Assembly: GCA_031385005.1 (NCBI GenBank)
Contig: JANNBB010000064.1
Location: forward strand, 17,459-81,458
DNA: 64,000 bases
Source: Bacteroidota bacterium
GTDB lineage: Bacteria > Bacteroidota > Bacteroidia > AKYH767-A > 2013-40CM-41-45
Direction of reading: 5' to 3'
Part shown: one piece after another, positions 13,082 to 20,318 of the stretch
How positions within the stretch are numbered: position 1 is the first letter of the stretch
Layout of the letters: every line of letters begins with the position of its first letter
Notes under the pieces: generated by a model
Told to the model about the DNA's origin: nothing
What the model saw: the letters and a program-made list of their open reading frames with translations, nothing else
Database searches by the model: none
Position numbers and translations under genes: made by a program

Positions 13082-14482
13082 ATGCTGACGAAACTGAAAA
13101 ACATTGTCCTTTTATTATTGATAAGTAACTCCCTTTCCGCTCAGGAAATGTGGGGAATAAGCAATAGTAATTTCAGTGGAAACATGGGCATTTTTCTAAA
13201 TCCGACGACAGTAGTCGGTGCTCCTTATCAGTATGAAATCAATCTGGCCGCATTCGATTTGTTTGCAGAAAACGATAACATCTATTTTTTGCAAAGCGAT
13301 AAGATGATCTATCATACGCTTATCGGATATGCGCGCGACGGAAAAAATTTCTACACAAGAAATTCGGGGTTGAACAATTCATTCGGACATACGCTGATAA
13401 TCGGACCATCCTATCTCCGCAATAAAACAACATCGGCATGGGGAATACATTCGGCTTTGCGTTCGGAGGCAAGCGCGTTGAACGTAACAACGCAAACGGC
13501 TTTGTTAATTGGTAACAGGTTTAATGCACCCATACTCAGAGGAGATACAATTACAACAGATCCGTATTCTTCCGCCTATGCATCCTGGATAGAAATCGGA
13601 ATGACGTATGGAAAAATTTTGCGGGAAAGTGAATATCATATTATCAAATGGGCGGCCAATGTAAATCTGCTGGGCGGCATGAATGGTTTTTATCTAAATG
13701 GCCGCAACCTGAAGTTTACATCTTTTGATTCTACGCAGCTCATCGTTCATTCGATGGATCAAACATCGGCACATGCGATTCGTCCGGAAGGTGGTTCCAT
13801 TTTCGGATTTCGCGGATTGGGTTTAAGTACAACGCTTGGTGTAACGTATATCAACCATCCCAATCGCGGCGCTTTTGATTGCAACATGAGTAATGATAAG
13901 CAACGAAAATACAAATACCGCCTCGGCGCTTCTTTGCTGGATCTGGGAACGATTTATTATTTTAACCAGGCCGAAGTGGTGAATATAAAAACAACTGATG
14001 AGAGAGTGTGGAATGGCATTGACTCTTTAGGATTTTCTACTTTTCAACAAATCGACTCCCAGCTTATTCGAAACGTTGGAGGAACGAGAGAGAAGAAAAA
14101 TTTCAACATCTGGTTACCGATGGGACTCAGTCTGCAATTCGATTATCAGATAAGGCCGAACCTCTTTGCCAATTTATCCTGGGTCAACAGAGTTCACTTT
14201 GCAGCGAATGAAATTGCACGCGGCAATCAACTCAATGCATCTGTCCGCTATGAGAGGAGAAGGTATGAGGCCAATCTGAATTTTTCTTTTTTTGAATACA
14301 AGCAACCATCGATGGGAGTTGCATTACGTTACAGGTTTTTAGTAATCGGCTCCGATCGCTTGTTGGAGACGCTTGGGTTAACAGAAGAAAAAAGTTTCGA
14401 TGTTTTCTTTGGTCTTAAATTTCAATTCTGTAAACGGCCATTTAGTCCGGGACCGGATTGTCCGGCTTATTTGAATAATTAG
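13082..14482 (+). CDS. Outer-membrane protein, DUF5723-like
   Basis: Signal peptide LSA-Q, SNFSG..GIFLNP N-terminal motif, amphipathic beta strands and LGASLLDLG.I. Confidence 0.65.
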   Translation: MLTKLKNIVLLLLISNSLSAQEMWGISNSNFSGNMGIFLNPTTVVGAPYQYEINLAAFDLFAENDNIYFLQSDKMIYHTLIGYARDGKNFYTRNSGLNNSFGHTLIIGPSYLRNKTTSAWGIHSALRSEASALNVTTQTALLIGNRFNAPILRGDTITTDPYSSAYASWIEIGMTYGKILRESEYHIIKWAANVNLLGGMNGFYLNGRNLKFTSFDSTQLIVHSMDQTSAHAIRPEGGSIFGFRGLGLSTTLGVTYINHPNRGAFDCNMSNDKQRKYKYRLGASLLDLGTIYYFNQAEVVNIKTTDERVWNGIDSLGFSTFQQIDSQLIRNVGGTREKKNFNIWLPMGLSLQFDYQIRPNLFANLSWVNRVHFAANEIARGNQLNASVRYERRRYEANLNFSFFEYKQPSMGVALRYRFLVIGSDRLLETLGLTEEKSFDVFFGLKFQFCKRPFSPGPDCPAYLNN

Positions 14483-15240: not shown

Positions 15241-15888
15241 ATGTTGAAACAATTGCGTTATTTAATGATTTGCCTTTTTTTTGTTTCATGTACTAAAACA
15301 ATTGATGATGTTCATTTTCACGGTAAAATTACTTTAGATTGCAATAATCAGTTACCTGCAAAAAATGTTACAGTAACAATTTACAGGTATTTTGATAGAG
15401 GACTTCATGATGCTGTTTTAATTGGAAAAACTACAACAGATAACAATGGTAATTATTTCATGATTACTGATGTTGAACAAAAAGGGAAATTTGAGTATTA
15501 CGGTTTAAATGTCTTTGCACCGGGGACAATAATTTATCCTGAATATTTTTGTTATGCTCAAACTTATGTTAATTCAACCAATATAGAAATGAATTGCCAA
15601 GCTAAACCTTTAAAAGTATTTGGATTTCACATAAAAAACGCATCACCATTTAATACTTTTGACGTTTTTAATTCTTTAATTATTTATCGGGAATCTACCT
15701 TTTATGTTGACACGGTTTTACATAATATTTTTGGGACTAATGTTGATACAACACTTTATTTATCACGTCAATCTCCTCTCAAGTTTAAATATTCATTTAC
15801 GAAAAACAGCATCCTCACATCAACCCCGGATACCACAATTTCAAATTGGGGTTGTCTTGATACATTAATTGTAAATTTACTTTATTAG
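15241..15888 (+). CDS. Hypothetical lipoprotein
   Basis: Lipobox FVS-C at residue 17, followed by beta-rich sequence. Confidence 0.7.
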   Translation: MLKQLRYLMICLFFVSCTKTIDDVHFHGKITLDCNNQLPAKNVTVTIYRYFDRGLHDAVLIGKTTTDNNGNYFMITDVEQKGKFEYYGLNVFAPGTIIYPEYFCYAQTYVNSTNIEMNCQAKPLKVFGFHIKNASPFNTFDVFNSLIIYRESTFYVDTVLHNIFGTNVDTTLYLSRQSPLKFKYSFTKNSILTSTPDTTISNWGCLDTLIVNLLY

Positions 15889-15978: not shown

Positions 15979-17004
15979 ATGAAAAGAAAAGATTTTTTAA
16001 AAGGCATTGGCATCGCCGGAATTGGAACAATGATTCCCGTTCGTAAAGCTGATGCAGCAATAAATGCAATATCAAAGTCGCAGGTGCCTTCCAATGTTTG
16101 TATTTTGATTCCACAGGAAACTGCAGGACCTTTCCCTTTTAATCTAAGCAATAATCCTGCAATGTTCAGACAAGATATTACCGAGGGAAATGCCGGTACG
16201 CCTCTGAACCTGACTCTTACCGTTGTCAACATCAACGACAATTGTAATCCTATCACAAATGCAAGGGTAGACATTTGGCATTGTGATAAAGATGGGTACT
16301 ATTCTGAATTCAATACCTCAAGCTGGCTGGGGCCACAGAACCATGTCGGCGATACTTTTTTTCGTGGAATCCAATTAACCGATTTAAACGGACAAGCATT
16401 TTTTACAACGATCTATCCGGGTTGGTATCCCGGTCGTGCCGTACACATACATTTCCAGGTTTTTCTGAATTCTGTTCTTAGTGCTACCTCACAACTGGCA
16501 TTCCCCGACAGCACCAATGTAGCCATAAACAATACACCGCTTTATTCTCCACACGGACAAAATCCAACAACCAATTCGCAGGACAATGTCTTCAGCGATA
16601 TGAATAATACACAATACCAAATAGTGACAATAGCTCCGAATGCATCGGGAGGGTATGATGCGGAATTAACTATCGGACTCAATGTTCCGGTAACGGGAAT
16701 AATAAATCTTGAGCCGGAGACGGGCGGACAATTTAAGTTGCAACAAAACTTTCCGAATCCTGTGGCGGGTTCAACAACAATTCCTTTTACTTTGAAAAAT
16801 CCTTCTGACGTAACCATAGAAATTTTCGACATGAATGGGAAAAAGAAATTGGTTGTTACCAAAGGAAAGTTGCCTGCCGGAGATCAAAAAGTATTGCTCG
16901 ATTTAAAAATGAATAGCCTGTCCGCAGGAAATTATTTATATCAACTCACTGTCGAAAACGAAGCAGGTGCTTATAGTCAGTTTAAAGTATTGACGGTTAA
17001 ATAA
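15979..17004 (+). CDS. Intradiol ring-cleavage dioxygenase family protein with Tat-like signal and T9SS CTD
   Basis: ETAGPFP, VDIWHCD..GYYS, FRGIQLTD..G...FTTIYPGWYPGRAVHIHF (Tyr/Tyr/His/His iron ligands), N-terminal KRKDFLK and C-terminal QNFPNP...KVLTVK. Confidence 0.9.
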   Translation: MKRKDFLKGIGIAGIGTMIPVRKADAAINAISKSQVPSNVCILIPQETAGPFPFNLSNNPAMFRQDITEGNAGTPLNLTLTVVNINDNCNPITNARVDIWHCDKDGYYSEFNTSSWLGPQNHVGDTFFRGIQLTDLNGQAFFTTIYPGWYPGRAVHIHFQVFLNSVLSATSQLAFPDSTNVAINNTPLYSPHGQNPTTNSQDNVFSDMNNTQYQIVTIAPNASGGYDAELTIGLNVPVTGIINLEPETGGQFKLQQNFPNPVAGSTTIPFTLKNPSDVTIEIFDMNGKKKLVVTKGKLPAGDQKVLLDLKMNSLSAGNYLYQLTVENEAGAYSQFKVLTVK

Positions 17005-17854: not shown

Positions 17855-19615
17855 TTATTTTGCTTCCATTTCTTTTAGCATCAATTCGCGAATGTATTTA
17901 ACAGGCGCACTTCCATAGCTCAGAAACTTTTCATTGAATTCTTTCAGGTTAAATTTATCGCCGAGTTTCTTTTTCATCTCATCGCGGAATTCATAGATTT
18001 CTGTATAGCCGTTAAAATAAGAAGTAAGCTGCACCTGTGTTAACTGAACACGACGCCATTTGTTTTCTGCCTCCGTCTTCTGCTGGAAAGCTTCGTCGAG
18101 TAAAAGTTTCATAGCATCTTCTTTAGAAAGATTTCCGGCATGAACACCATAATCCAAAATGAAATTACAGGTAGCGCGAAGGTTCCACTTGTAATACATC
18201 AGCCACATGGCAGGATCGTTATCGCCGTAACCTTCTTCCAGCATCATTCGCTCTGTATAAACGGCCCAGCCCTCAACCATCGATCCATTTCCTAAAATAG
18301 ATTTGATCATGCTAGGCGATTTATTGCTGTAGATGAGTTGTGTGTAATGTCCGGGAATGGCTTCGTGAATATTCAGAATCTGGAGAATGTAATGGTTGTA
18401 TTCTCTCAGATAACTTTCCGCTTTATCTTTTTCCCAGCCGGAAAGACTGCCGACATTGTAATAAGTATTTCCTGTTTTATCGTAAGGACCCGGAGCATTG
18501 ATGGAAGCACCGGCAACACCTGCCATGTAATCCGGCTCGCGACGAACGACTAATGGACGCGAAGGATCCATGTAGATGAGATTTTTCTTCGTCACGAATT
18601 CCGTCAAATCTTTTAATTGTTTTTCAATAGCAATCTGAAATGAATCCGGCGCAACGTGGTTGGATGAAAGTCTGTCGATTACCAGACGAATAAGTTGTAA
18701 TGTATCTTCCGGATAAGGTCGTTTACCCATCAAGCCATTCCAAAGTTTGGAGGAAATGGCCGCCATTTGTTTATGTAATTCTTTTTTGTGTTCAACGGCT
18801 TTCTGATACATATCCTCCGGAGAATAGGAAGACATGATATCGAATTGAAATTTCTTTGCATACAATTCTTTACCCAGACGGAATGAGCGAGGATTTTCAT
18901 TTTTATAATTCTTCAGCCAGGTGACATAATCCTTAATAGCATTTGCAGCAGCATCTGCGCGCTCAATCATTTTTTTCTTTTCTTCTTCTGAGAGCCCTGA
19001 TTTACTTAATGCTTCTTTCAGATCTCTTTCAAAAACGCCGAGACTTCCCTGATTCTGATCAATAGCTAATTGTGTATGTTCCAATGTTGGATTGGAAATA
19101 TTTTTTTTCGCTGCTTCATAGAAAGCAGGAATGTTTTGCATTCTTAAATAGAAATTGCGAAGACGATTATCTAAACTATCATAGGTGTTGTTGAGCATAT
19201 CGCCAAATGTACTTCCGAGGTTGTAACCGGAAGGATCCCATTCATACGATTTCATTTCTTTCAGGCTCCAGATACCTGATTTTAATTGATTGTCGATTAG
19301 ATAATAATCTGTCCGGTTGTTGTCGTCCAGTTTGGCAGCATCGAATTGTTTCAATGAATCAAGTTCCGATTCGTTGAAGCGCAATTCTTTTTCACGCTGA
19401 GCGGCATCAGGAACAAATATTACACTATCATAATTATGATATCCGACAGAACTGGCCCATGTCGGGTACATTTCCCAAAAGCGAAGGACTAATCTTTCTT
19501 TATATGCAGTAAATGCTGCGTCATTGGATTTGGAATTTTCAGCATTGCTCTTGTTTTCCTGAGAGCAGGAAAATAAAATAGCAACTATAAGCAGAAGTGG
19601 AATATTCGTTTTCAT
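17855..19615 (-). CDS. DUF885 family lipoprotein (putative metallopeptidase)
   Basis: Lipobox LFS-C, HEAIPGHY, EGWAVY.E, Y..GY.EI and F.LKEFNEKFLSYG. Confidence 0.88.
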   Translation of the reverse strand: MKTNIPLLLIVAILFSCSQENKSNAENSKSNDAAFTAYKERLVLRFWEMYPTWASSVGYHNYDSVIFVPDAAQREKELRFNESELDSLKQFDAAKLDDNNRTDYYLIDNQLKSGIWSLKEMKSYEWDPSGYNLGSTFGDMLNNTYDSLDNRLRNFYLRMQNIPAFYEAAKKNISNPTLEHTQLAIDQNQGSLGVFERDLKEALSKSGLSEEEKKKMIERADAAANAIKDYVTWLKNYKNENPRSFRLGKELYAKKFQFDIMSSYSPEDMYQKAVEHKKELHKQMAAISSKLWNGLMGKRPYPEDTLQLIRLVIDRLSSNHVAPDSFQIAIEKQLKDLTEFVTKKNLIYMDPSRPLVVRREPDYMAGVAGASINAPGPYDKTGNTYYNVGSLSGWEKDKAESYLREYNHYILQILNIHEAIPGHYTQLIYSNKSPSMIKSILGNGSMVEGWAVYTERMMLEEGYGDNDPAMWLMYYKWNLRATCNFILDYGVHAGNLSKEDAMKLLLDEAFQQKTEAENKWRRVQLTQVQLTSYFNGYTEIYEFRDEMKKKLGDKFNLKEFNEKFLSYGSAPVKYIRELMLKEMEAK

Positions 19616-19761: not shown

Positions 19762-20223
19762 TCAACAGAAAGATTTCGGATTGTGAGTAATCGGAAAATT
19801 GCAGGAGTTAGCAATAAAACACTTCCGATGTGCTTCTTCGTGCAGGGCATTAGCTTTTTCAATCATCCACAGCTCCTTTACTTTTACCAATGGATTTAAG
19901 GTGACAGATGTAAATCGTCCCGCAGTTTTGGGATCTAGAGTTAATACTCCGGTAGCATTATCTGTGTAATCGATTACAATAACTCCGGCATCAGCGCAAA
20001 GGTGGAGATACCAAAGCATATGACAAGCAGAAAGTGAAGCGACGAGCATATCTTCGGGATTGTGTTTGGAGCCATCACCATTAAACGGAACATCAGAAGA
20101 ACAAAGCAATTCAGGTTTACCTTTGATGTTGAGCGTATGACTTCTATCGTATTCTTTGTAACCGGAAGTTCCGCTGCCGCGGTTGCCTGTCCATTTGATT
20201 TCTGTAGTGTAGTGATGAGTCAT
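19762..20223 (-). CDS. OsmC/Ohr family protein
   Basis: Start MTHHYTT preferred. Motifs NPEDMLVASLSACHML and AH.KCFIANS give the two catalytic Cys. Confidence 0.9.
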   Translation of the reverse strand: MTHHYTTEIKWTGNRGSGTSGYKEYDRSHTLNIKGKPELLCSSDVPFNGDGSKHNPEDMLVASLSACHMLWYLHLCADAGVIVIDYTDNATGVLTLDPKTAGRFTSVTLNPLVKVKELWMIEKANALHEEAHRKCFIANSCNFPITHNPKSFC

Positions 20224-20318
20224 TGTCAATATGTATTTGCTAAGAAGCAAGAATATTTATTACTATAACGAACATCAATTTTAAAATCAAATTTTGCATT
20301 TGATAAATACAGTAAACA

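What the first reader, a model, noticed from the sequence alone, without database searches (positions are those of the whole stretch)
15979..17004. Intradiol dioxygenase with a Tat-like signal and a T9SS sorting domain
The iron ligands (GYYS; GWYPGRAVHIH) are intact. The N-terminus KRKDFLK followed by a Gly-rich weakly hydrophobic segment resembles a twin-arginine motif (RK variant). T9SS cargo are generally described as Sec-exported, and classical intradiol dioxygenases are cytoplasmic. This implies a folded Fe enzyme routed Tat then T9SS, for extracellular cleavage or detoxification of catechols or polyphenols. No beta-ketoadipate pathway genes are adjacent.
Basis: partly seen in the sequence, partly recalled or inferred. 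Interest (0 to 1): 0.62.

Follow-up and report, generated by a model that had tools for sequence, protein, structure and literature searches.

The report
Tat-like, T9SS-tailed secreted catechol dioxygenase
This gene encodes a secreted-type, iron-dependent enzyme that cuts catechol rings, and it pairs a type IX secretion tail with a leader derived from the folded-protein (Tat) export signal, a combination that the T9SS papers found here do not describe and that has not been tested.

Summary
ORF 15979-17004 (+) encodes a 341-aa protein. It has an intradiol dioxygenase core with all four Fe ligands (Y108, Y150, H156, H158), a type A T9SS C-terminal domain, and the N-terminus MKRKDFLKGIGIAGIGTMIPVRKADA.

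The core belongs to the known extracellular intradiol dioxygenase clade (Streptomyces SACTE_2871, spider-mite DOGs), not to the cytoplasmic CatA/PcaGH enzymes. The genome lacks a beta-ketoadipate pathway.

The leader is homologous, position for position, to true twin-arginine signals:
- 88 of 150 diverse family representatives carry RR and 22 carry RK.
- Among the closest T9SS-tailed relatives the count is 45 RR against 45 RK, with at least 15 switches on the tree.
- Loss of the second Arg brings no shift towards Sec-like features.
- R3 is invariant, the h-region lies in the lowest 4% of hydrophobicity among 283 T9SS cargo signals of this genome, and the c-region is basic.

The genome has tatC, two tatA copies and sprA. 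It also holds a second cargo, DUF1501, with a canonical RR leader plus a CTD.

The likeliest route is Tat export followed by T9SS secretion (about 0.55). A Sec-routed RK leader remains possible (about 0.3). Reviews, and the predictor T9GPred, treat T9SS cargo as Sec-only. This scan has already flagged the same architecture in at least eight other genomes.

The parts
15979..17004 (+). Complete gene for the 341-aa exported intradiol dioxygenase with T9SS tail. The stop codon is at 17002-17004.
   Evidence: ORF list. 2908 homologs, and nearly all of the top 120 share the same architecture.
15979..16056 (+). Predicted signal peptide, residues 1-26: n-region MKRKDFLK, h-region GIGIAGIGTMIPV, c-region RK-ADA. 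The putative cleavage is A26|A27. An alternative site, S34|Q35, cannot be excluded.
   Evidence: Read directly from the sequence. Residues 1-37 have low confidence in the AF2 model. H-region hydrophobicity is 1.98, rank 12 of 283 among this genome's T9SS cargo signals (median 2.79).
15982..16002 (+). Tat-like motif K-R-K-D-F-L-K (consensus S/T-R-R-x-F-L-K), with Lys in place of the second Arg.
   Evidence: R3 is invariant in 72 homologs while position 4 varies. At the same position homologs carry RR 45, RK 45, RS 9, RG 7 and RN 3 times. Among 150 representatives, 88 are RR and 22 are RK.
16057..16098 (+). Low-confidence linker, residues 27-40, between the signal and the catalytic core.
   Evidence: AF2 pLDDT is below 50 for residues 22-37. 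This stretch is variable in the alignment.
16099..16686 (+). Intradiol ring-cleavage dioxygenase core, residues 41-236. It starts at the invariant C41 in the motif C-x-L-I-P-x-E-T-x-G-P.
   Evidence: phmmer against the PDB: 6bdj/5vg2 at E about 1e-24 and 4ilt/4ilv at about 1e-8. Foldseek TM-score relative to target is 0.82 (5vg2) and 0.86 (4ilt). Pfam PF00775.
16300..16302 (+). Tyr108, predicted Fe(III) ligand.
   Evidence: Invariant column. Aligns to the conserved Tyr of 5vg2/4ilt.
16426..16452 (+). Y150-P-G-R153-A-V-H156-I-H158, holding the second Tyr ligand, a conserved Arg and both His ligands.
   Evidence: Y150, R153, H156 and H158 are invariant in 72 sequences. Aligned.
16732..17001 (+). 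Type A T9SS C-terminal sorting domain, residues 252-341. The HMM match covers residues 258-328.
   Evidence: TIGR04183 at E 1.4e-10, 41 bits against a cut-off of 23. PF18962. AF2 predicts a beta-sandwich with pLDDT about 90.

Best explanation
The gene encodes an extracellular-type intradiol (ortho-cleaving) catechol dioxygenase. It uses a non-haem Fe(III) centre held by Tyr108, Tyr150, His156 and His158.

Proposed route:
1. The protein folds and probably takes up iron in the cytoplasm.
2. The TatA/TatC translocase exports it across the inner membrane. Recognition is through a leader that is a natural RK variant of the twin-arginine motif (KRKDFLK), followed by a weakly hydrophobic Gly-rich h-region and a basic c-region.
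3. Signal peptidase removes the leader.
4. The folded enzyme is recognised in the periplasm through its type A C-terminal domain.
5. It passes through the SprA translocon of the type IX secretion system to the cell surface or the medium.

Outside the cell it opens catecholic rings, for example catechol, hydroxyquinol, protocatechuate or caffeate-type plant, algal or humic phenolics. This would serve as detoxification or conditioning of the surroundings, not as the first step of a catabolic funnel, because the genome has no beta-ketoadipate pathway.

What is shown here: the domain architecture, intact ligands, the fold, homology of the leader to RR leaders, and presence of the Tat and T9SS genes. 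What is inferred: actual Tat dependence of the RK leader, T9SS dependence, the site of iron loading, and the substrates.
For: Enzyme:
- PF00775 is above its cut-off.
- The best solved relatives are secreted enzymes, the spider-mite DOG 5vg2/6bdj and Streptomyces SACTE_2871 4ilt/4ilv, by sequence and by fold (model pLDDT 85).
- The ligand residues are invariant.
- SACTE_2871 cleaves catechol, protocatechuate, caffeate and hydroxyquinol, and defines a clade of extracellular enzymes (PMC12420386).
- The mite enzymes detoxify plant catechols (PMC9167512).

Tat:
- The R of the motif is invariant, and FLK is the consensus at the same positions.
- RR occupies that position in 45 of 112 close homologs and in 88 of 150 50%-identity representatives.
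- There are at least 15 RR/non-RR switches on the tree of mature domains.
- H-region length, hydrophobicity and c-region charge are the same in the RR, RK, RS and RG classes, so there is no drift towards a Sec-type signal.
- Within this genome the h-region ranks 12th lowest of 283 T9SS cargo signals. The lowest is the other Tat-type cargo.
- 84% of the other cargo signals are about 20 aa long and end in small-residue-Gln. This leader has no such junction in that range (residues 13-32); its only one, S34-Q35, lies beyond it.
- A basic c-region is the known Sec-avoidance feature (PMC7317946).
- tatC and two tatA copies are present.

T9SS:
- TIGR04183 is above its cut-off.
- sprA is present, and the genome holds 323 CTD-bearing ORFs.
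- SprA transports folded proteins (PMC9251779).

Generality: a second, unrelated cargo of the same genome (DUF1501 plus CTD) starts MKRRDFLR. Of its 120 closest homologs, 101 are RR and 14 are RK.
Against: - The second arginine is Lys, so programs that demand RR would reject this leader.
- The leader gives no hit to TIGR01409 or PF10518. RR relatives score only sub-threshold.
- In E. coli even conservative R-to-K changes are 'poorly tolerated' (PMC7317946).
- Eukaryotic homologs (fungi, mites) are secreted through a Sec-type route, so cytoplasmic folding is not obligatory for this fold.
- Two of the 150 representatives have plain Sec-lipoprotein leaders.
- None of the 102 experimentally verified T9SS cargos has a Tat signal (PMC10515386).
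- No experiment bears on this protein. SignalP and TatP could not be run.
Confidence: 0.55

Rival explanations
1. Same enzyme and same T9SS secretion, but the RK leader is now used by the Sec pathway, or by both pathways. The protein would cross the inner membrane unfolded, fold and acquire iron in the periplasm, and then be handed to the T9SS like ordinary cargo. The Tat-like motif would be an evolutionary leftover.
For: - RK instead of RR, with no match to the curated Tat-signal HMMs.
- R-to-K is poorly tolerated in E. coli, and Sec and Tat signals overlap functionally.
- Fungal and mite homologs fold after Sec-type translocation.
- Rare bacterial homologs have Sec-lipoprotein leaders.
- All verified T9SS cargos are Sec-type.
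- In one-per-species Bacteroidota genomes RK clearly outnumbers RR in this family.
Against: - A relic would decay. Instead R3 is invariant, and x-F-L-K, the short Gly-rich h-region and the basic c-region are kept across homologs that are only 35-75% identical in the mature part.
- RK and RR classes do not differ in hydrophobicity.
- The h-region is in the lowest 4% of this genome's cargo signals.
- Sec n-regions in this genome prefer Lys 4:1 and have no fixed motif.
Confidence: 0.3
2. The protein reaches the periplasm and stays there or at the outer membrane. The C-terminal beta-sandwich would act as an Ig-like binding or anchoring module, not as a functional T9SS signal.
For: - The CTD also gives weak sub-threshold hits to FlgD_ig and PKD folds.
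- Many family members outside T9SS phyla lack the domain, and many Bacteroidota homologs are lipoproteins instead.
Against: - TIGR04183 and PF18962 are above their curated cut-offs.
- The domain sits at the extreme C-terminus, as in 323 other ORFs of this genome.
- Full-length homologs with the CTD come from T9SS-bearing lineages: Bacteroidota, Ignavibacteria/Kapabacteria and Fibrobacteria.
Confidence: 0.08
3. The protein is not a catechol-cleaving enzyme. It would have another role, for example metal binding or a different oxygenation.
For: - No activity data exist for this subfamily.
- It scores far below the equivalog cut-offs for CatA and PcaH.
- The genome encodes no downstream pathway.
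Against: - All four Fe ligands and R153 are invariant.
- The nearest solved relatives are active intradiol dioxygenases.
Confidence: 0.07

Closest known systems
SACTE_2871 of Streptomyces sp. SirexAA-E (PDB 4ILT/4ILV), the reference extracellular intradiol dioxygenase (EID)
   Same: Same minimal dioxygenase fold (TM-score relative to target 0.86) with a 2-His/2-Tyr Fe(III) site. It is secreted and carries a C-terminal non-catalytic module. [quoted passage not shown] From my own recollection of Bianchetti et al. 2013 (paper not held), it is exported by Tat.
   Different: It comes from a Gram-positive host, so no outer membrane has to be crossed. Its C-terminal module is a lignin/carbohydrate-binding domain, not a T9SS sorting domain. 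Identity is only about 24%.
Spider-mite intradiol ring-cleavage dioxygenases (DOGs; Tetur07g02040, PDB 5VG2/6BDJ) and their fungal relatives
   Same: They are the closest solved sequences (E about 1e-24, about 30% identity). They are secreted and act as broad-spectrum detoxifiers of catecholic plant metabolites.
   Different: They are eukaryotic. They use an ER-type signal peptide and have no sorting tail.
Ordinary type A T9SS cargo (gingipains, Flavobacterium ChiA and others)
   Same: They carry a TIGR04183 C-terminal beta-sandwich and undergo two-step secretion through the periplasm and SprA.
   Different: All verified cargos use Sec leaders, and T9GPred excludes Tat leaders by rule. This protein has a Tat-derived leader.
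Tat-exported proteins secreted onward by the type II system in Pseudomonas aeruginosa (PMC4899797, abstract)
   Same: The logic is the same: a folded Tat substrate in the periplasm is picked up by an outer-membrane secretion system that accepts folded proteins.
   Different: The outer-membrane machine is different (T2SS secretin against T9SS SprA), and so is the recognition signal.
Cytoplasmic CatA / PcaGH of the beta-ketoadipate pathway
   Same: Same superfamily and the same metal ligands.
   Different: They have no signal peptide, are larger and have oligomerisation domains. Their equivalog HMM scores here are far below the cut-offs (34.5 against 296, and 31.8 against 404). The genome holds no pathway partners.

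Membership tests
Extracellular intradiol dioxygenases (EID clade; SACTE_2871 / DOG-like) | Dioxygenase_C domain above the Pfam gathering score | tested here: met
   45.2 bits against a cut-off of 27.3.
Extracellular intradiol dioxygenases (EID clade; SACTE_2871 / DOG-like) | Two Tyr and two His Fe(III) ligands | tested here: met
   Y108, Y150, H156 and H158 are invariant in 72 homologs and align to the solved relatives.
Extracellular intradiol dioxygenases (EID clade; SACTE_2871 / DOG-like) | Closest in fold to solved secreted members, not to CatA/PcaGH | tested here: met
   TM-score relative to target is 0.82 for 5vg2 and 0.86 for 4ilt. It is 0.4-0.5 for most CatA/PcaH chains.
Extracellular intradiol dioxygenases (EID clade; SACTE_2871 / DOG-like) | N-terminal export signal | tested here: met
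   A leader is present here and in nearly all full-length homologs.
Extracellular intradiol dioxygenases (EID clade; SACTE_2871 / DOG-like) | Intradiol cleavage of catechols | not testable with these tools
   Needs an enzyme assay.
Type A T9SS cargo | C-terminal TIGR04183/PF18962 domain above cut-off at the extreme C-terminus | tested here: met
   41 bits against 23, and 34.6 against 27. The domain ends 13 residues from the stop. AF2 predicts a beta-sandwich.
Type A T9SS cargo | Host genome encodes the T9SS | tested here: met
   SprA_N at E 4e-159 in a 2428-aa ORF. The genome has 323 CTD-bearing ORFs. Other core genes were not searched individually.
Type A T9SS cargo | Sec-type N-terminal signal and no Tat signal (the rule used by T9GPred) | tested here: inconclusive
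   The leader is Tat-derived but RK, so whether a predictor calls it Sec or Tat could not be run. Its features are atypical for the genome's Sec-type cargo.
Type A T9SS cargo | Secretion depends on T9SS genes and the CTD is removed | not testable with these tools
   Needs mutants and proteomics.
Tat (twin-arginine) substrates | Consecutive arginines in S/T-R-R-x-F-L-K | tested here: not met
   The sequence is K-R-K-D-F-L-K, so only the first Arg is present.
Tat (twin-arginine) substrates | Rest of the signal: x-F-L-K, weakly hydrophobic h-region, basic c-region, AxA site | tested here: met
   D-F-L-K is present. The h-region scores 1.98 against a genome median of 2.79. R22-K23 precede A-D-A (sequence). 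These criteria are listed in PMC7317946.
Tat (twin-arginine) substrates | Match to curated Tat-signal HMMs (TIGR01409, PF10518) | tested here: not met
   There is no hit for this leader. RR homologs reach only 14.3 bits against a cut-off of 16.7 and 21 against 22.7, so the models are barely informative here.
Tat (twin-arginine) substrates | Leader homologous to bona fide RR leaders in orthologs | tested here: met
   45 RR against 45 RK among close homologs, 88 RR among 150 representatives, and at least 15 switches on the tree.
Tat (twin-arginine) substrates | Tat machinery present | tested here: met
   TatC at E 1e-64 and two TatA-family genes.
Tat (twin-arginine) substrates | Export depends on tatC | not testable with these tools
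   Needs genetics.
Beta-ketoadipate pathway dioxygenases (CatA, PcaGH) | Equivalog HMM above cut-off and pathway partners in the genome | tested here: not met
   TIGR02422 scores 34.5 against 296, and TIGR02438 scores 31.8 against 404. No muconate cycloisomerase is above its cut-off and there is no MIase.

The most novel reading that the evidence does not exclude
Handover of folded, metal-loaded Tat substrates to the type IX secretion system would be a real, widespread and so far unrecognised branch of T9SS secretion. It would be used by at least two unrelated cargo families, the extracellular intradiol dioxygenases and DUF1501 proteins. The Tat receptor of Bacteroidota and their relatives would also naturally accept R-K (and perhaps R-S, R-G or R-N) in place of R-R, so current predictors would miss or deliberately discard these cargos.
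Probability: 0.5. Interest if true: 0.65.

Novelty: new variant of a known kind. Interest (0 to 1): 0.5.

Why it matters
T9SS cargo is defined in reviews and in the prediction tool T9GPred as Sec-exported. A cargo class that arrives through Tat would have three consequences:
- It would show that the T9SS can take proteins that were folded and cofactor-loaded in the cytoplasm.
- It would enlarge the predicted secretomes of environmental Bacteroidota.
- It would offer a route for surface display or secretion of metalloenzymes.

The RK/RR interchange, which is frequent here and also present in the DUF1501 family, is a natural experiment on how strict the twin-arginine rule is outside E. coli.

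Ecologically, a secreted catechol-opening enzyme in a genome with no downstream pathway points to extracellular detoxification or processing of polyphenols and humic matter, not to catabolism.

Tried and rejected
1. Co-occurrence of the dioxygenase with tatC across 401 Bacteroidota genomes. The dioxygenase is in 36 genomes but TatC is in 399, so the test cannot discriminate.
2. Conserved gene neighbourhood in 21 loci. Nothing recurs except antisense shadow ORFs. A DUF1501 gene lies nearby in only 3 loci, so context gives no functional partner.
3. Curated Tat-signal HMMs. They are too short to decide, because even RR relatives fall below the cut-offs.
4. A shift towards Sec-like features in non-RR homologs (longer or more hydrophobic h-region, loss of c-region charge). 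None was found.
5. Literature searches for Tat combined with T9SS, and for intradiol dioxygenases as T9SS cargo. No report was found in the held library. Absence from this library is not proof of absence.
6. Bianchetti et al. 2013 on SACTE_2871 is not held. Its Tat claim therefore rests on my memory and on the RR prevalence measured here.
7. A lipoprotein reading was rejected for this copy. There is no Cys in the leader, and C41 is not preceded by a lipobox, although many CTD-less Bacteroidota homologs do look like lipoproteins.
8. A classical catabolic CatA/PcaH reading was rejected.

Full report
**What is there.** ORF 15979..17004 (+) encodes 341 residues (DNA). The start codon is supported by a near-invariant Met in 72 aligned homologs.

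Pfam finds Dioxygenase_C at residues 63-176 (45.2 bits, cut-off 27.3) and Por_Secre_tail at residues 258-328 (34.6 bits, cut-off 27). NCBIfam finds the type A T9SS sorting domain TIGR04183 (41 bits, cut-off 23). The equivalogs for protocatechuate and catechol dioxygenases score far below their cut-offs (34.5 against 296, and 31.8 against 404).

**The enzyme.** By sequence, the nearest solved structures are the secreted spider-mite intradiol dioxygenase (6bdj/5vg2, E about 1e-24) and the secreted Streptomyces enzyme SACTE_2871 (4ilt/4ilv, about 1e-8). The classical cytoplasmic enzymes follow far behind.

An AlphaFold2 model built on 72 homologs has mean pLDDT 85. Residues 1-37 are disordered, the core is confident, and residues 252-340 form a confident beta-sandwich. 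Foldseek against the PDB gives the same two relatives, with TM-scores relative to the target of 0.82 and 0.86.

Y108, Y150, R153, H156 and H158 are invariant in the alignment, as are C41 and C89. The two Tyr and two His residues align to the ligand positions of the solved relatives.

A 2025 study defines this clade as extracellular intradiol dioxygenases. It reports signal peptides in 97% of bacterial members, and it shows SACTE_2871 cleaving catechol, protocatechuate, caffeate and hydroxyquinol (PMC12420386). The mite enzymes detoxify a wide range of plant catechols (PMC9167512).

The contrast with 'classical cytoplasmic' enzymes is therefore true but beside the point, because this protein belongs to a known exported clade.

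The genome has a single PF00775 gene. It has no muconolactone isomerase and no muconate cycloisomerase above the cut-off. No neighbour is conserved across 21 related loci. The immediate neighbours are a DUF5723 protein, a small membrane protein, a lipoprotein, DUF885 and OsmC. The enzyme is thus not the head of a beta-ketoadipate funnel.

**The leader.** The question specific to this window is whether KRKDFLK is a Tat signal.

- *Homology.* Of the 120 closest homologs, nearly all with the same dioxygenase-plus-CTD architecture, 112 show the motif at the same position. Counts are RR 45, RK 45, RS 9, RG 7, RN 3 and others 3.
- *Wider family.* A search of 1.84 billion cluster representatives with the catalytic domain alone found 5165 relatives. 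Of the best 150, 88 have RR (79 without and 9 with a CTD), 22 have RK, 8 have R plus another residue, and 2 have plain Sec-lipoprotein leaders. The family as a whole is Tat-targeted, and this leader descends from such signals.
- *Lability of the second position.* On a tree of the mature domains, built with the leader excluded, the state changes at least 26 times. RR against non-RR changes at least 15 times. Both states occur within Saprospiraceae and Chitinophagales.
- *No drift to Sec.* The RR, RK, RS and RG classes have the same h-region length (about 14), the same hydrophobicity (maximum 10-residue Kyte-Doolittle score about 1.95-2.04) and about two basic residues in the c-region.
- *Selection on the motif.* R3 is invariant in 72 sequences and F-L-K is the consensus.
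- *Comparison within the genome.* I found 323 ORFs ending in a T9SS CTD, and 283 have a recognisable signal. Their h-region median is 2.79, and this leader scores 1.98 (rank 12 from the bottom). Their n-regions prefer Lys over Arg by 423 to 103 and show no fixed motif. 84% end in a small-residue-Gln junction at about residue 20, whereas this leader's only such junction is S34-Q35, outside the scanned range of residues 13-32.
- *Machinery.* tatC and two tatA-family genes are present, and so is sprA.

**Evidence against Tat routing.**
- The strict RR rule is not met.
- The curated Tat-signal HMMs do not hit this leader. They also leave RR relatives below threshold, so they are weak judges.
- A review of Tat targeting states that even conservative Lys substitutions are poorly tolerated in E. 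coli, although a natural variant lacking one Arg exists and Sec and Tat signals overlap functionally (PMC7317946).
- Fungal and mite homologs fold after Sec-type translocation, so Tat is not structurally obligatory.
- In one-genome-per-species Bacteroidota, RK clearly outnumbers RR in this family. Many CTD-less copies there look like lipoproteins with an RK leader.

**A second family.** Only one other CTD-bearing ORF in this genome has a Tat-type leader. It is a DUF1501 protein at G000:C42:51287-52873 that begins MKRRDFLR. Of its 120 closest homologs, almost all carrying the CTD, 101 have RR and 14 have RK.

This independent family shows two things. The Tat-leader plus T9SS-tail pairing is not an accident of one gene. 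RK also recurs as a minority state in an otherwise canonical Tat family of the same phylum.

**Literature.** Reviews describe T9SS substrates as Sec-dependent (PMC9251779; PMC13721041). T9GPred requires a Sec signal and 'no Tat signal', based on 102 verified cargos (PMC10515386).

Searches for Tat combined with T9SS, or for intradiol dioxygenases as T9SS cargo, found no report in the held library. SprA is described as transporting folded proteins, so the handover is mechanistically plausible. It parallels Tat substrates that P. aeruginosa secretes onward (PMC4899797, abstract).

**Earlier notes of this scan.** The same architecture, usually with true RR, has been flagged in at least eight other genomes. 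One follow-up reached the same reading, and a Tat-Rieske protein with a T9SS tail was also noted. I treat these as leads only. The counts above are my own.

**Verdict.** The protein is a new member of the known extracellular intradiol dioxygenase clade and a bona fide type A T9SS cargo candidate.

Its leader is a Tat-derived RK variant under evident purifying selection. Tat export followed by T9SS secretion is the best-supported route (about 0.55), and a Sec-routed leader is the main rival (about 0.3).

The combination of routes is a new variant of known systems. It is undemonstrated, and it is not unique to this window. A tatC co-occurrence test was uninformative, because TatC is present in 399 of 401 sampled genomes.

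Noticed in passing
G000:C42:51287-52873 (-), outside the window: A DUF1501 protein of 528 aa has a canonical Tat leader (MKRRDFLR) and a T9SS CTD. Of its 120 closest homologs, 101 are RR and 14 are RK. This is a second, independent family combining a Tat leader with a T9SS tail.
   Followed up: yes
G000:C57:6678-7553 (-), about 26 kb upstream of the window start: A LigB-type extradiol ring-opening dioxygenase of 291 aa carries a Tat-like RK leader (MNRKTFIQTLALLPLATSA...). This is a second exported aromatic ring-cleaving enzyme in the same genome. It has no CTD.
   Followed up: partly
G000:C16:9560-10282 (-); C31:3449-4444 (-); C40:296426-296851 (+); C40:345417-346352 (+); C10:28209-29555 (-): The genome's small set of RR-leader proteins consists of an Fe/Mn superoxide dismutase, a pirin (quercetinase-like cupin), a Rieske protein, a metallophosphoesterase and a phosphodiesterase-like protein that resembles the DUF1501 leader type. 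Most are metalloproteins. The SOD, the pirin and the two dioxygenases suggest an exported oxygen/polyphenol-handling set.
   Followed up: partly
Whole genome G000: 323 stop-to-stop ORFs end in a T9SS type A CTD in a 3.97-Mb genome. This is an unusually heavy T9SS cargo load. 84% of the recognisable signals end with a small-residue-Gln junction.
   Followed up: partly
Window 16072-16083 (residues 32-35, S-K-S-Q): Close homologs share an [AS]-K-[AST]-Q-[LV]-P motif about six residues before the invariant Cys41. It resembles a second signal-peptidase site followed by Gln, so the mature N-terminus (A27 or Q35) is uncertain.
   Followed up: no
Window 16714-16737 (residues 246-253, P-E-T-G-G-Q-F-K): The junction motif L-E-P-E-T-G-G-Q-F between the catalytic domain and the CTD has invariant P246, G249, G250 and F252 in 72 homologs. 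This is more conserved than most of the CTD, and its role is unknown.
   Followed up: no
L095-L109 (loci from Bacteroidota genomes): CTD-less Bacteroidota homologs of 220-270 aa combine the same M-x-R-K-x-F-L-K start with a lipobox-like Cys (for example ...LLESCSK...LSACGK). They look like Tat-type lipoproteins and would be an alternative way of anchoring the same enzyme.
   Followed up: no
Window 13082-14482 (+), 15241-15888 (+), 17855-19615 (-), 19762-20250 (-): The neighbours are a DUF5723 protein with a Sec signal, a small lipoprotein with a weak transthyretin-like hit, a DUF885 lipoprotein and an OsmC-like protein. None is conserved next to the dioxygenase in other genomes.
   Followed up: yes
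L013, L014 and L016 region: In three related loci a Tat-leader DUF1501 gene lies within about 2 kb upstream of the dioxygenase. This may be chance or a loose association of the two Tat-type cargos.
   Followed up: no
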